Origin: Escherichia coli
GTDB lineage: Bacteria; Pseudomonadota; Gammaproteobacteria; Enterobacterales; Enterobacteriaceae
NCBI RefSeq assembly: GCF_030013205.1
Contig: NZ_CP122648.1
Strand: one strand, 5' to 3'
DNA: 64,000 nucleotides
Made by a program: the position numbers. The stretch's first letter is position 1; each line of letters begins with the position of its first letter. This document shows positions 1 to 3,000 of this stretch, piece after piece.

Positions 1-3000
1 CGTTCGGCCTGAAAACCAGAATCTGCAAAATTTCGGCGAAATTATCCCGATTATTTCCGGCGTTATTGGCGGGAGTGAAACCACTATTGTTAGCGCCAGA
101 GCGTTACATAAGGCGTTAGGTGTAGGGCGCGTTTTCCGTTCGTGGATCAAGGGGCGCATTGAAGAATATGGGTTCACGGAAGGCGTGGATTATAAGGTTG
201 TTGAATATTTGAGCCGACCCGATCCGGTGAGCGCAAAATCTCGCCAGCAAACCGCTCTTGAGTACATCATCACAGTGAACATGGCGAAAGAACTGGCGAT
301 GGTCGAACGTACCGAACAGGGCCGCGCCGTTCGCCAGTACTTTATCAAATGCGAGGAGGAGCTACACAAGGTTGCGCCTGTTCGTTCCGCAGCGTTACGC
401 CGGGAACTGAAAGCCCGTATCACAGTTGCCAGCTACTTTAAGCCAATGTGTGCCGCGCTGGAGGCGTACCGGGCTGAACTGGGTAAAAACACACTCCAGC
501 ACCACTACACCACGGAAGCGAACATGCTGGCGCGTATCGTGCTGGGTGGCATGACTGCAAAACAGTGGGCACTGGCGAACGGCATTACAGGCGAACCACG
601 CGACCACATGAGCACGTTGCAGCTTGAGCACCTTTCTTACCTTGAGCAGAGCAATATCACGCTGATTGAGTTAGGCCAGGACTACCACCAGCGGAAGGCT
701 GAATTAATTCGTCTTTCGCAGCGTTGGTTAGCCCGTCGCATGGAGGAAAACAGCCATGTGTAACGCTCTGACCGTTACAAAAAGAAAAAGCGCCCCGTTG
801 CCGGAGCGCCTTTGTGAACGAATAGCCTACTGCGCCATATTGCTTACTGTCTACGAGGCAGATTATAGCGTTGTGGTCGCACAGAGTGAAGGCGCTGATC
901 ACCGTTACTACAGCACACCAGAAATGCAGAATATTTTGCTGCAAAATGTCGTTGGCCACGCTGTCCGGAAAGCAAAAAATTTTGCTGGTGGCGTGACTGA
1001 TACGATTTTTTCTGGTTGCTCGGTGCTGATCAACTTAACCTGGACTTATGTACAACATTGCAACTATTCCTACTTTAAGCTGAATGTAACTTTACCTATA
1101 TCATTAGAGGTATGGTCGCGCTTGACCTCAATTTCACCATTTTGTAGCCCTGCTACAAAAAAATATAAAAGTGTCAATGTTGCTGCAATCAGTAACCATT
1201 TTCCAAAAATATACATTCTTGATTTTACCCTTAATCGTCAACCTTTTGGCACGATGCCTCGCTGTTGTAATTCTTTGCGGAGCACTCGTTTAATCCAGGT
1301 AGCTAATGAGGTGTCGCCGTCTGCTTTGGCTGCCTCCTCAAGTTGTGCCCTAAATTCTTCTGGTAGCCGCATTTGGTATGGTGGCGATCGTTTTTCTAAT
1401 GGTGTTGACATGGTAATTACCCATAATTACTATAGTTACACGGTAATTACCATTGTACTTACCATTGCAAAAAAAACAACGCCCCGGACTGCGGGAACAG
1501 TACCAGGGCGTCTAACCACCAACGATAGCGAAAGTATCGAGGTAGCTATGATAAATCATACCACACACCCGCAAGGGCGGGACTCGCACAACCTGAATAA
1601 ATACATCTGGCGTTTTATCGCCCTGAGCACGGCACAACCGCGCGTGATTCACATCGAGGCCACCAGCGAACAGGAAGCCCGCCAGCAATCTCCTGATGGC
1701 TGCGTGATGGTATTCGCTGCCCGTATTCGCCAGGAGGTACGCCATGATTAACCTGTCACTTACCGACCTTCACCGCATTCAGTTTGACGAGAAATTTACC
1801 GGGCAGCTACTGGTCCATGTGGAGAACGGGCGCATAGTGCGTAATTACCACCTGCCGGATGGTGCAATTGCCGGAAGCGTTGAAGCATTGCTGGAAATGG
1901 CAGAACGTGCGCGACTGATTAAGCCGTTAACGTGCCATCACGATGATGATCTGCATTTTACCGGACGCATGGTGAGCCATTATGAAAACGGCGTTGAGGT
2001 ATCCCGCGAACGTCTGCGTGATGATTGCTGTTTCGGCACATTGCCGGAATTTATCGAATTGCTGACCGATTGCGGTTATCAGGTAATTCAGAGCAAGACG
2101 CAGGAGTAAAAAACCATGAAAAAGAAAAATTCTGGCTTTACTGCCAGCGGCCCCGCTCGGCCTGAAATCAAACACGGCGATATTTACCGCGACACCAGAC
2201 GTGGGGGACGAGTGGTTATTCGTCACGTTACGCCAGGCAATATCACCTACCGCCGTGAGGCTTACGAATATGACTGCGTAATGCCGCGCCGTCAGTTTGA
2301 GCGTGATTTTATTCTGGTGGAAAACAAACAACAGGCGGTGGCGAGACGTGCAGCCACGAATATTAAAAAAATCCGGGCAATGTTGGTTGCGGGAGGTAAG
2401 AAGTGAAAAACGCCCCGAATTTAAAATATCAGCCGAAGGATAAATTCACTGAGGTAATCATTTTTGCCGGGACGGATGCTTACGCCCATGCTCAACACTG
2501 GATTGAAAGCGAAGGACGAAAACACGGCGATAACGTACCACCTGTTTACCTGGGGCCGAAGCAACTGGCAGACCTGGCGAACATCCGCATTATCGACGAA
2601 GGGCGCCGCTTTGCGCGTGTCTATATCGCAGGGGAGATCGAACCAATTCAGATCAACGCTATCGCCGAAAAGCTGGCACTGGCTGGCGTACAGGAGGCGA
2701 AATTATACAAAGGCATCACCGACCGGGAGCCGGAGAACTGGCGCGATTACCTGCAACGGATCCGCGAACAGGCAGAGCGCGGGGAAGTTTCAGCGATGAA
2801 ATTAGTCACAAAAAATAGTGACCTACCCAGGCCAGCACTAAATCAGATGGGAGCCAGCCAGAGAGGGGAAGTATTGCTTGAATATTATGGAAGGGCACTG
2901 GCTATAAATGACGATTCTGATGTAGTTCACCATTACAACGGAATTGTCTGGGAGCCTGTATCTGATAAGGAACTCCAGCGGTCTATGGCGAAGATTTTTA

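What the first reader, a model, noticed from the sequence alone, without database searches (positions are those of the whole stretch)
1238..1451. Perfect 10-bp palindrome GGTAATTACC duplicated at the start of a ribbon-helix-helix gene
RHH repressors typically bind tandem palindromic operators overlapping their own promoter. Two identical GGTAATTACC copies 30 bp apart sit exactly at the 5' end of the 57-aa RHH ORF, consistent with an autoregulated switch such as an immunity or antirepressor control module. The long plus-strand ORF annotated across this region is probably spurious.
Basis: seen in the sequence. Interest (0 to 1): 0.35.

Follow-up and report, generated by a model that had tools for sequence, protein, structure and literature searches.

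The report
Arc-like repressor operators in a satellite
The two GGTAATTACC palindromes are very probably the binding sites of a small, often unannotated Arc-like repressor that shuts off the replication operon of a phage-satellite island (a PICI) in E. coli, a class of elements for which no repressor has yet been described.

Summary
GGTAATTACC occurs exactly twice in the 64 kb window, at 1412-1421 and 1442-1451, directly upstream of a 57-aa ORF (1238-1411, minus strand).

That ORF is a real Arc-like ribbon-helix-helix gene. It keeps a fixed length across many gammaproteobacterial genera, has dN/dS of about 0.09, and its predicted structure matches only RHH proteins.

The window starts inside a roughly 11 kb PICI-type satellite (int, alpA, Bro/AntA, then Icd-like, DUF4222 and primase) of a pig ETEC strain.

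The palindromes sit on a strong, conserved rightward promoter, TTGACA-17-TACTAT. Its -35 hexamer is the antisense of RHH codons 1-2.
- O1 lies in the promoter spacer.
- O2 lies at about +3 to +12.
- A degenerate O3 lies 12 bp beyond O2.
- A weaker leftward RHH promoter is predicted to start inside O2.

Operator sequence co-varies with the RHH beta-strand: YQMRL goes with GGT....ACC and YQ(I/L)RL with TGTAATTACA. Other E. coli PICIs, including the model EcCICFT073, carry a different small RHH with its own twin repeats at the same place.

I also found a conserved antisense RNA of about 83 nt (about 1548 to 1466, minus strand) covering the Icd-like ribosome-binding site.

Best reading: a repressor-plus-antisense-RNA switch on the satellite's replication operon. 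No binding or transcription was tested.

The parts
1412..1421 (.). Operator O1: perfect palindrome GGTAATTACC. It abuts the RHH start codon and lies in the spacer (about -28 to -19) of the rightward promoter.
   Evidence: Present immediately 5' of the ATG in nearly all homologous loci.
1442..1451 (.). Operator O2: perfect palindrome GGTAATTACC. It lies at about +3 to +12 of the rightward promoter and about -6 to +4 of the predicted RHH promoter.
   Evidence: Conserved as GGTnnTTACC, 30-31 bp from O1 in most loci.
1454..1463 (.). Probable operator O3, degenerate: GGTAAGTACA on the minus strand (8 of 10 matches), 12 bp from O2. It overlaps the -10 and spacer of the predicted RHH promoter.
   Evidence: (family D1). 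The site at the same 11-12 bp offset is a perfect TGTAATTACA in L007, L008 and L020, and half-conserved in class B loci.
1238..1411 (-). Gene for a 57-aa Arc-like ribbon-helix-helix protein, the putative repressor. It is not annotated in the RefSeq record of this strain.
   Evidence: ORF. 63 homologues, nearly all 56-58 aa, in many genera. dN/dS 0.086. AF2 pLDDT 78 with two helices. All Foldseek hits are RHH proteins. PHROG 228 at E=1e-6. Absent from the annotation but annotated as hypothetical.
1405..1433 (+). Predicted strong sigma-70 promoter of the Icd-like/primase operon: -35 TTGACA (1405-1410, antisense of RHH codons 1-2), 17-nt spacer, -10 TACTAT (1428-1433). Start site is about 1440.
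   Evidence: 10 of 12 consensus matches. It is the top-scoring promoter at the same position in 24 of 26 aligned loci, at 12-15 bits.
1452..1479 (-). Predicted weaker promoter of the RHH gene: -35 TTGTTT (1479-1474), 16-nt spacer, -10 TACAAT (1457-1452). Start site is about 1445, inside O2 and facing the rightward promoter.
   Evidence: It is the best minus-strand candidate, and the -10 ends 40-41 nt before the ATG in most class A loci. Class B loci have TTGCAA-18-TGTAAT with the -10 inside O2.
1466..1552 (-). Candidate cis-antisense small RNA of about 83 nt. Its 5' domain is complementary to the Icd-like Shine-Dalgarno (GAGG, 1539-1542) and start codon. A terminator hairpin (1512-1478) and U-run (1477-1466) follow.
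   Evidence: RNAalifold gives -23.2 kcal/mol with 22 pairs, 15 of them compensatory, on this strand, against -9.2 with 9 pairs on the other strand. MFE is -38 kcal/mol, z = -5.7. The covariance model hits every related locus, including loci not used to build it. No Rfam match.
1555..1563 (-). Predicted extended -10 promoter of the antisense RNA: TGGTATGAT on the minus strand, inside codons 3-6 of the Icd-like gene.
   Evidence: T, A and T of the TAnnnT hexamer are invariant in all 26 aligned loci, while the encoded amino acids vary (invariant T82, A83, T87).
1548..1751 (+). Icd-like gene (67 aa), first gene of the controlled operon. The operon continues with a 121-aa ORF (1744-2109), DUF4222 (2116-2406) and a D5-type primase (2403-4208).
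   Evidence: NCBIfam phage_ICD_like at E=4e-20.
756..1547 (+). Spurious 5' extension of the Icd-like reading frame (the upstream part of ORF 756-1751). It runs antisense through the RHH gene and across the promoters.
   Evidence: a stop in the intergenic region in 27 of 39 loci; frame relation not conserved. (region 764-1237 conserved in only 9 genomes).

Best explanation
**Proposed mechanism.** The palindromes are operators of the adjacent 57-aa Arc-like RHH protein. Together they form the repressor half of a switch that keeps the replication operon of a Gram-negative PICI-type satellite silent.

**Shown by sequence and comparison**
- The RHH gene is real and under purifying selection.
- O1, O2 and a degenerate O3 are conserved in position.
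- O1 lies between the -35 and -10, and O2 just after the start site, of a strong conserved rightward promoter that heads the Icd-like, DUF4222 and primase operon.
- The -35 hexamer is built into RHH codons 1-2.
- Operator sequence and the RHH recognition strand change together across lineages.
- Other PICIs have a different small RHH with different twin repeats at the same place.

**Inferred**
- RHH dimers bind O1 and O2/O3, which are three helical turns apart. They exclude RNA polymerase from the rightward promoter, so the satellite does not replicate.
- Because the predicted RHH promoter starts inside O2 and has O3 over its -10, the protein also limits its own synthesis.
- The two promoters face each other with start sites about 5 bp apart, so they are mutually exclusive. 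This gives an on/off switch.
- The roughly 83-nt antisense RNA, made from inside the Icd-like gene, pairs with the Icd-like ribosome-binding site and silences leaky transcripts. Read-through of its terminator could add to RHH expression.
- Induction probably comes from the helper-activated AlpA operon upstream. That operon is transcribed towards and through the RHH gene. This last step is speculation.
For: - **Palindromes:** the exact copies and their statistics.
- **RHH identity:** fixed length and Arc-type strand motif; dN/dS 0.086; AF2 model; all 46 Foldseek PDB hits are RHH proteins, with Arc 1bdv_B at rmsd 0.9 A over 38 residues and AmrZ at 37% identity; PHROG 228 Arc-like repressor at E=1e-6.
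- **Rightward promoter:** TTGACA-17-TACTAT, the top hit at the same place in 24 of 26 loci.
- **Operator conservation:** position and 30-31 bp spacing conserved in most loci.
- **Specificity co-variation:** YQMRL with GGT....ACC; TDQYQ(I/L)RL with TGTAATTACA; QFPMRL with GGTATATACC; PPFQFRL with GTGTCAnTACAC.
- **Same design with other RHH classes:** GTGTACAC x2, TGGTACGTACCA x2, TGTGCGCACA x3 and GTGTTCAACAC x3; GGGCCACACC x2 flanking the -10 in the model PICI EcCICFT073.
- **Element identity:**
[quoted passage not shown] AlpA was still called a putative master regulator in 2025 (PMC11773190).
Against: - No binding, transcription-start or expression data exist for this locus. All promoters are consensus predictions, and the RHH promoter is only moderate (9 bits).
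- The Pfam Arc match is below threshold (16.8 against 20.4 bits).
- Foldseek E-values are above 1 because the protein is tiny.
- The AF2 monomer shows no beta-strand. This is expected, since the strand forms only in the dimer.
- A few homologous loci (Pantoea L049 and L053; part of L055) lack recognisable twin sites.
- In EcCICFT073, over-expressing AlpA alone triggers replication. Any repressor there must therefore be overridden by AlpA by an unknown route.
Confidence: 0.75

Rival explanations
1. The RHH protein is only a local autoregulator or a type II antitoxin. On this reading it controls its own small leftward operon (RHH plus the 48-aa hydrophobic ORF at 1070-1216) and has no role in the rightward operon.
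For: Many RHH proteins are antitoxins, and some database sources label homologues 'HicB family antitoxin'. A 48-aa membrane-like ORF starts 21 nt after the RHH stop codon. O2 and O3 overlap the predicted RHH promoter.
Against: - The gene downstream of the RHH differs from locus to locus or is absent. Examples are a 48-aa ORF, a 67-aa hypothetical, a SWIM protein and a 241-aa protein. There is therefore no conserved toxin partner.
- The conserved neighbour is always the Icd-like operon and its promoter.
- The protein has no C-terminal toxin-binding extension, only a 7-residue tail after the RHH fold.
- O1 sits in the spacer of the rightward promoter, and that promoter's -35 is embedded in the RHH start.
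Confidence: 0.08
2. The palindromes are bound by some other factor, such as AlpA, a helper-phage protein or a host regulator. Alternatively they are part of a replication origin. On either reading the neighbouring RHH is incidental.
For: AlpA is the known activator of these islands, and its targets in the replication region are not mapped. AT-rich repeats occur at origins.
Against: - The operator sequence changes in step with the RHH beta-strand while the rest of the module stays the same.
- Non-homologous RHH classes each bring their own palindromes.
- Yersinia similis Y228 carries one element of each class, each with its cognate sites.
- Each copy is itself two-fold symmetric, as expected for a dimeric RHH.
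- The sites are positioned on promoter elements.
Confidence: 0.05
3. The two copies act at the RNA level. As inverted repeats of each other (12-nt arms at 1410-1421 and 1442-1453), they could form a hairpin in a long leftward transcript. That hairpin would hide the RHH start codon.
For: (I4: 12-nt arms, 100% complementary, 20 nt apart). A transcript reading through the antisense-RNA terminator would contain both arms.
Against: - A hairpin needs only mutual complementarity, yet each copy is itself a palindrome. The same holds for the unrelated operators of other classes, some of which are not near the start codon.
- The predicted RHH transcript starts inside O2 and would lack the 5' arm.
- The central bases of O2 differ from those of O1 in most loci.
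- Co-variation with protein residues is not explained by an RNA hairpin.
Confidence: 0.04

Closest known systems
Phage P22 immunity I region (Arc and Mnt repressors plus sar antisense RNA controlling ant)
   Same: - Small Arc-type RHH repressor with the strand motif PQ(F/Y)x(L/M)R(W/L)P.
- One operator between the -35 and -10, and another at the start site, of the controlled promoter. The P22 operator positions are from my own knowledge of Vershon et al. 1987.
- Opposed promoters.
- A small antisense RNA that pairs with the ribosome-binding site of the controlled gene. [quoted passage not shown]
   Different: - One RHH gene here rather than two.
- The controlled operon is Icd-like, DUF4222 and primase of a satellite, not an antirepressor.
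- The operators are 10-14 bp perfect palindromes repeated 30 bp apart, rather than Arc's single 21-bp site.
- Sequence similarity to Arc is marginal (20% identity; Pfam match below threshold).
- The antisense RNA has no Rfam family.
Plasmid pMV158 copy control (CopG RHH repressor plus antisense RNAII on repB)
   Same: Both use dual control of a replication-initiator operon. [quoted passage not shown] CopG is among the fold matches (1ea4_F).
   Different: - CopG is co-transcribed with repB. Here the RHH is transcribed the opposite way from a facing promoter.
- The host element is an integrated phage satellite, not a rolling-circle plasmid.
- The first controlled gene is Icd-like, and the primase lies three genes further on.
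SaPI / Gram-positive PICI master repressor Stl (Rpr)
   Same: Both are transcribed in the direction opposite to the excision-replication operon of a phage-inducible island. Both sit at the boundary between the integrase side and the replication side (PMC6092414).
   Different: - Stl proteins are much larger HTH proteins with helper-protein-sensing domains. This one is a 57-aa RHH with no obvious sensor domain.
- Gram-negative PICIs are reported to be induced through the activator AlpA, and no repressor has been described.
YlcI/YnfO family small proteins (NCBIfam NF041551), as annotated in EcCICFT073 and other E. coli PICIs
   Same: They occupy the same position and orientation, immediately upstream of and opposite to the Icd-like gene. 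They have a similar size (59-65 aa), an RHH-like pattern, and their own twin repeats over the rightward promoter. There is weak profile similarity (PHROG 949 at E=0.009).
   Different: The window protein scores 20.1 bits against a cut-off of 30, so it is not a member by the curated threshold. It also has a different recognition strand, different operators and a different C-terminal tail: RGIVPKG here (RGIEPKG in relatives) against RRKAKE in the YlcI/YnfO proteins.

Membership tests
Ribbon-helix-helix (Arc/MetJ) superfamily | Fold: an N-terminal strand followed by two helices, matching solved RHH proteins. | tested here: met
   The AF2 model (pLDDT 78) has helices at 18-31 and 36-50 after an extended N-terminus. 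All 46 Foldseek PDB matches are RHH proteins, including Arc 1bdv_B (rmsd 0.9 A over 38 columns), AmrZ, CopG, NikR and ParD. E-values are 1.4-10 because the query is tiny. The strand is not called in the monomer model, as expected for a strand that pairs across the dimer.
Ribbon-helix-helix (Arc/MetJ) superfamily | Arc-type recognition strand with alternating polar and hydrophobic residues flanked by prolines (Arc: PQFNLRWP). | tested here: met
   The window protein has PPYQMRLP at residues 10-17 (consensus PQYQMRLP), and it aligns with Arc PQFNLRWP.
Pfam PF03869 Arc-like DNA binding domain | Profile score at or above the gathering threshold (20.4 bits). | tested here: not met
   16.8 bits, E=0.0064, covering residues 9-32 only. 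The viral profile PHROG 228 'Arc-like repressor' matches at E=1e-6 over residues 6-53.
Ribbon-helix-helix repressors | Sequence-specific binding of dimers, or dimers of dimers, to symmetric operators. | not testable with these tools
   Support is indirect only. There are twin palindromes at fixed positions, and operator bases co-vary with strand residues.
YlcI/YnfO family (NCBIfam NF041551) | Profile score at or above the curated cut-off (30 bits). | tested here: not met
   20.1 bits, E=4.8e-4. Positional analogues in other PICIs score 31-60 bits.
Type II toxin-antitoxin RHH antitoxin | A conserved cognate toxin gene in the same operon. | tested here: not met
   The downstream gene is different or absent in each locus examined. 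The 48-aa ORF has no family match.
Gram-negative phage-inducible chromosomal island (PICI) | Gene order int, alpA, variable Bro zone, primase/replication module, small late zone; about 10-15 kb; integrated at a specific site. | tested here: met
   In ETEC1747 the order is integrase, AlpA-type HTH, AntA/AntB, (RHH), Icd-like, DUF4222, D5 primase, ProQ/FinO, PerC and DUF2213, lying between abgR and smrA. The layout matches EcCICFT073 and the zones described in PMC10111431. The att sites were not mapped.
Gram-negative phage-inducible chromosomal island (PICI) | Induction, excision and packaging by a helper phage. | not testable with these tools
   No experimental data exist for this element.
P22 immI-type module | The controlled gene is an antirepressor (ant). 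| tested here: not met
   The controlled operon starts with an Icd-like gene and encodes the primase. The AntA/AntB gene lies upstream on the other side and is not behind this promoter.

The most novel reading that the evidence does not exclude
This small RHH, together with its positional analogues annotated YlcI/YnfO, HicB-like or 'hypothetical', is the missing master repressor of Gram-negative PICIs.

- It would form a family of interchangeable repressor-operator 'immunity types'. These sit on the replication-operon promoter of every such island, including the model EcCICFT073.
- It would work together with a conserved, undescribed antisense RNA against the Icd-like gene.
- The C-terminal tail RGIEPKG is shared by several specificity classes. 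It would be the handle for dimer-dimer contacts or for inactivation during helper-phage induction.
Probability: 0.35. Interest if true: 0.7.

Novelty: new member of a known kind. Interest (0 to 1): 0.55.

Why it matters
Gram-negative PICIs are widespread. Homologues of this control region occur in 1549 of 5426 complete E. coli genomes.

PICIs spread virulence and defence genes. Their induction is currently explained only by the activator AlpA. The founding paper states that a global repressor is 'unclear' (PMC6092414).

A conserved Arc-like repressor, with operators on the replication-operon promoter, and a partner antisense RNA would give a concrete account of how these islands stay silent. 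It would also explain how islands of different specificity coexist in one cell. The account can be tested directly in the established EcCICFT073 system.

The locus also exposes an annotation problem. In some genomes the RHH gene is missed, or replaced by a spurious extended or pseudogene 'Icd-like' or 'ash family' call on the other strand.

Tried and rejected
- **Rfam.** A scan of 1-10500 on both strands at E<=1 found nothing at the locus. In particular there was no C4, CI or isrK immunity RNA as reported for some PICIs. The only hits were weak terminator-like matches at 5407-5483 and 6352-6447.
- **PDB sequence search.** A profile of the RHH alignment gave only spurious designed helical-repeat hits, plus AmrZ at E=0.39. 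It was not informative, so I used fold comparison instead.
- **Codon-position test.** Counting substitutions by codon position could not separate the RHH frame from the overlapping plus-strand frame, because the two share third positions. I used stops and frame conservation instead.
- **First palindrome simulation.** It timed out and was rerun.
- **Automatic palindrome-pair detection.** It missed sites whose central 4 bp are asymmetric, so I read those manually.
- **Literature searches.** Searches for an RHH or Arc repressor in PICIs, or for 'Icd-like', found no description of this module. Subscription-only papers are not covered.
- **CFT073.** My first guess at the EcCICFT073 coordinates returned the helper prophage at icd instead. 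The island itself was found.
- **Rejected readings.** Toxin-antitoxin, replication origin and RNA hairpin are rejected for the reasons given under the rival explanations.
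Full report
**1. The observation**

GGTAATTACC occurs exactly twice in the window, at 1412-1421 and 1442-1451. The first copy touches the ATG (1411-1409, minus strand) of a 57-aa ORF at 1238-1411.

It is the only one of 57 ten-bp perfect palindromes in the window that is duplicated within 60 bp. Only 2 of 200 Markov simulations gave any such duplication. The repeat finder also reports a third, weaker copy at 1450-1463 and shows that the real repeat unit extends beyond 10 bp.

**2. Where this is**

The first roughly 8 kb of the window match, at 100% identity, a chromosomal island of pig ETEC strain ETEC1747 lying between abgR and smrA. Its genes run in this order:
- integrase
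- AlpA-type HTH
- AntA/AntB (Bro-N) protein
- an unannotated gap
- Icd-like protein
- a hypothetical protein
- DUF4222
- D5-type primase
- ProQ/FinO
- PerC
- DUF2213

This is the layout of Gram-negative phage-inducible chromosomal islands (PICIs). It matches the model element EcCICFT073 and the zones described in PMC10111431. The RHH ORF lies in the unannotated gap.

**3. The ORF is a real Arc-like RHH gene**

- It has 63 homologues, nearly all 56-58 aa. They occur in Escherichia, Salmonella, Yersinia, Xenorhabdus, Photorhabdus, Gilliamella, Aeromonas, Oceanimonas, Pasteurellaceae and other taxa.
- Median dN/dS among 24 distinct coding sequences is 0.086.
- The strand motif PPYQMRLP (consensus PQYQMRLP) aligns with Arc PQFNLRWP.
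- Profile matches are mixed. Pfam Arc is below threshold at 16.8 against 20.4 bits. PHROG 228 'Arc-like repressor' matches at E=1e-6.
- The AlphaFold model (pLDDT 78) has two helices after an extended N-terminus. All 46 Foldseek PDB matches are RHH proteins, for example Arc at rmsd 0.9 A over 38 residues and AmrZ at 37% identity. The E-values are weak because the query is so small.
- RefSeq does not annotate the gene in this strain. Other genomes call it 'hypothetical'.

**4. What the palindromes sit on**

The only sigma-70-like promoter found in 900-1800 is on the plus strand: TTGACA (1405-1410), a 17-nt spacer, then TACTAT (1428-1433).
- The -35 hexamer is the antisense of RHH codons 1-2 (ATG TCA A).
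- O1 fills the spacer.
- With a start near 1440, O2 covers about +3 to +12.

In a position-weight scan of 26 aligned loci from different genera, this promoter is the top plus-strand hit at the same position in 24, scoring 12-15 bits.

On the RHH strand the best candidate is TTGTTT (1479-1474), a 16-nt spacer, then TACAAT (1457-1452). Its -10 ends 40-41 nt before the ATG in most class A loci. That puts the RHH start near 1445, inside O2, with the degenerate O3 (1454-1463) over its -10 and spacer.

O3 lies 11-12 bp from O2 in most loci and is a perfect TGTAATTACA in three of them. The two promoters therefore face each other with start sites about 5 bp apart. These are predictions, not measurements.

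**5. Evidence that the sites belong to this protein**

Across loci the DNA between the sites diverges. The sites themselves stay 30-31 bp apart in most loci (27-35 bp in a few), and O1 stays next to the ATG.

The sites change together with the recognition strand:

| Recognition strand | Operator |
|---|---|
| KRSPQYQMRL | GGTnnnnACC |
| KTDQYQ(I/L)RL, and the Pasteurellaceae variants | (T/A)GTAATTACA |
| QFPMRL | GGTATATACC |
| PPFQFRL | GTGTCAnTACAC |

One Yersinia similis genome carries one element of each main class, each with its cognate sites.

Other E. coli PICIs have, at the same place and in the same orientation, a different small RHH-like protein with its own twin or triple repeats over a TTGAC(A/G) promoter. 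These proteins are annotated YlcI/YnfO, HicB-like or hypothetical. Their repeats are GTGTACAC, TGGTACGTACCA, TGTGCGCACA and GTGTTCAACAC. EcCICFT073 has GGGCCACACC twice, flanking its -10.

This looks like a set of interchangeable repressor-operator specificities. Several classes share the C-terminal tail RGIEPKG.

**6. The long plus-strand ORF**

ORF 756-1751 is open in the window. However, in 27 of 39 homologous loci a stop closes that frame 6-114 nt upstream of the Icd-like ATG. The RHH-ATG to Icd-ATG distance varies from 125 to 154 nt. Region 764-1237 is conserved in only 9 genomes.

The part upstream of 1548 is therefore spurious. The last 67 codons are the real Icd-like gene. PGAP sometimes calls extended or pseudogene 'Icd-like' or 'ash family' ORFs across the RHH gene.

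**7. A second regulatory layer, found in passing**

Between O3 and the Icd-like start codon lies a conserved structured element.
- RNAalifold gives -23.2 kcal/mol with 22 pairs on the RHH strand, 15 of them with compensatory changes. The Icd strand gives only -9.2 kcal/mol with 9 pairs, because G-U pairs work on one strand only.
- In the window the 83-nt RNA (1548 to 1466, minus strand) folds at -38 kcal/mol with z = -5.7. It has a 5' domain complementary to the Icd-like Shine-Dalgarno and AUG, then a terminator hairpin and a U-run.
- A TAnnnT hexamer is invariant in all 26 loci, although the overlapping Icd-like codons encode different amino acids. In the window it reads TGGTATGAT at 1563-1555 on the minus strand.
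- A covariance model built from 25 loci finds one copy in the window at 82.6 bits. It also finds one or two copies in each of 19 loci not used to build it, out of 24 such loci searched. These include EcCICFT073, a Pasteurella satellite and an IncR plasmid. Every hit is on the RHH strand.
- Rfam has no match.

**8. Mechanism proposed**

The RHH binds O1 and O2/O3. This occludes the rightward promoter, keeping the replication operon off, and it limits synthesis of the RHH itself. The facing promoters exclude each other, which gives a switch. The antisense RNA blocks translation of leaky Icd-like transcripts.

The design parallels two known systems:
- P22 immI, which has Arc and Mnt plus sar RNA (PMC2629481).
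- pMV158 copy control, which has the RHH protein CopG plus RNAII (PMC4485353).

How repression is lifted is unknown. In EcCICFT073, AlpA alone triggers primase-dependent replication (PMC6092414). The alpA operon is transcribed towards the RHH gene, so read-through and interference are a plausible but untested route.

**9. Novelty and limits**

An RHH repressor with palindromic operators is a familiar kind of system. This family and its role in Gram-negative PICIs are not described in the searchable literature. The founding paper says a global repressor in these elements is 'unclear'.

Homologous control regions occur in 1549 of 5426 complete E. coli genomes, and this RHH class occurs in about 387. 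Everything here is computational. Binding, start sites and the RNA all need experiments.

Noticed in passing
window 1466-1563 (minus strand): Conserved candidate cis-antisense small RNA of about 83 nt against the Icd-like ribosome-binding site. It has its own invariant -10 inside the Icd-like codons and an intrinsic terminator. It is strongly strand-specific and has no Rfam family. It is found in every related locus tested, including EcCICFT073.
   Followed up: yes
L064 3383-3560; L068, L069, L070, L071 (about 1376-1500); L073 25653-25853 (EcCICFT073): Other E. coli PICIs carry a different small RHH-like gene (YlcI/YnfO, HicB-like or hypothetical) at the same position. Each has its own twin or triple repeats over the rightward promoter. 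This looks like a set of exchangeable repressor-operator specificities upstream of a conserved antisense-RNA/Icd-like core.
   Followed up: partly
window 1070-1216 (minus strand): Unannotated 48-aa ORF with a hydrophobic N-terminal half (MYIFGKWLLIAATLTLLYFFVAG...). It starts 21 nt after the RHH stop codon in an AT-rich stretch. It has no Pfam, PHROG or NCBIfam match and is conserved in only 9 complete E. coli genomes. It could be a small membrane accessory gene co-transcribed with the repressor, much as rexAB follows the lambda cI gene.
   Followed up: partly
L001 11765-12548; L004 4543-4908; L064 2761-3208; L065 3132-4139: RefSeq annotation of this region is inconsistent. The RHH gene is missing in ETEC1747 and STEC346. 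In several genomes, extended or pseudogene 'Icd-like' or 'ash family' ORFs are called on the opposite strand, across the RHH gene and the promoters.
   Followed up: partly
C-terminus of the RHH protein (window 1238-1261, minus strand) and homologues in L068, L070, L071: The tail RGI(V/E)P(K/R)G after the second helix is shared by RHH classes that have different recognition strands and operators. It resembles the KKEGRIGA end of Arc. It may be a contact surface for dimer-dimer cooperativity or for an inducer.
   Followed up: no
L002 4150-5200: An E. coli island carries two control modules in tandem. The first is an RHH of the window's class with GGTAATTACC operators, an antisense RNA and a truncated Icd-like stub. 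The second is a YlcI/YnfO-type module with its own antisense RNA and the intact operon. This is evidence of recombination between modules.
   Followed up: partly
L066 (Klebsiella IncR plasmid p56661-46.1) 2987-3650, plus about 100 other plasmids: A 63%-identical RHH, the antisense RNA (83.6 bits) and a gene on the opposite strand in the Icd-like position (86 aa, annotated hypothetical, not checked here) occur as an isolated block among IS elements. They are found on many 42-60 kb Klebsiella, E. coli and Salmonella plasmids.
   Followed up: partly
L020 and L047 (Yersinia similis Y228): One genome holds two related islands with different RHH/operator classes (GGT....ACC and TGTAATTACA). This is consistent with divergence of specificity to avoid cross-regulation.
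   Followed up: no
window 1840-1849: A one-mismatch copy, CGTAATTACC, lies inside the second gene of the operon, about 400 bp downstream of O2. It could be an auxiliary site or chance. Five other one-mismatch copies lie far away in the chromosome.
   Followed up: no
window 5407-5483: Two consecutive terminator-like hairpins lie just after the PerC-family gene. They were picked up as weak, sub-threshold Rfam matches (ncr1175 and Thr leader). They are probably a tandem intrinsic terminator separating the replication zone from the late zone.
   Followed up: no
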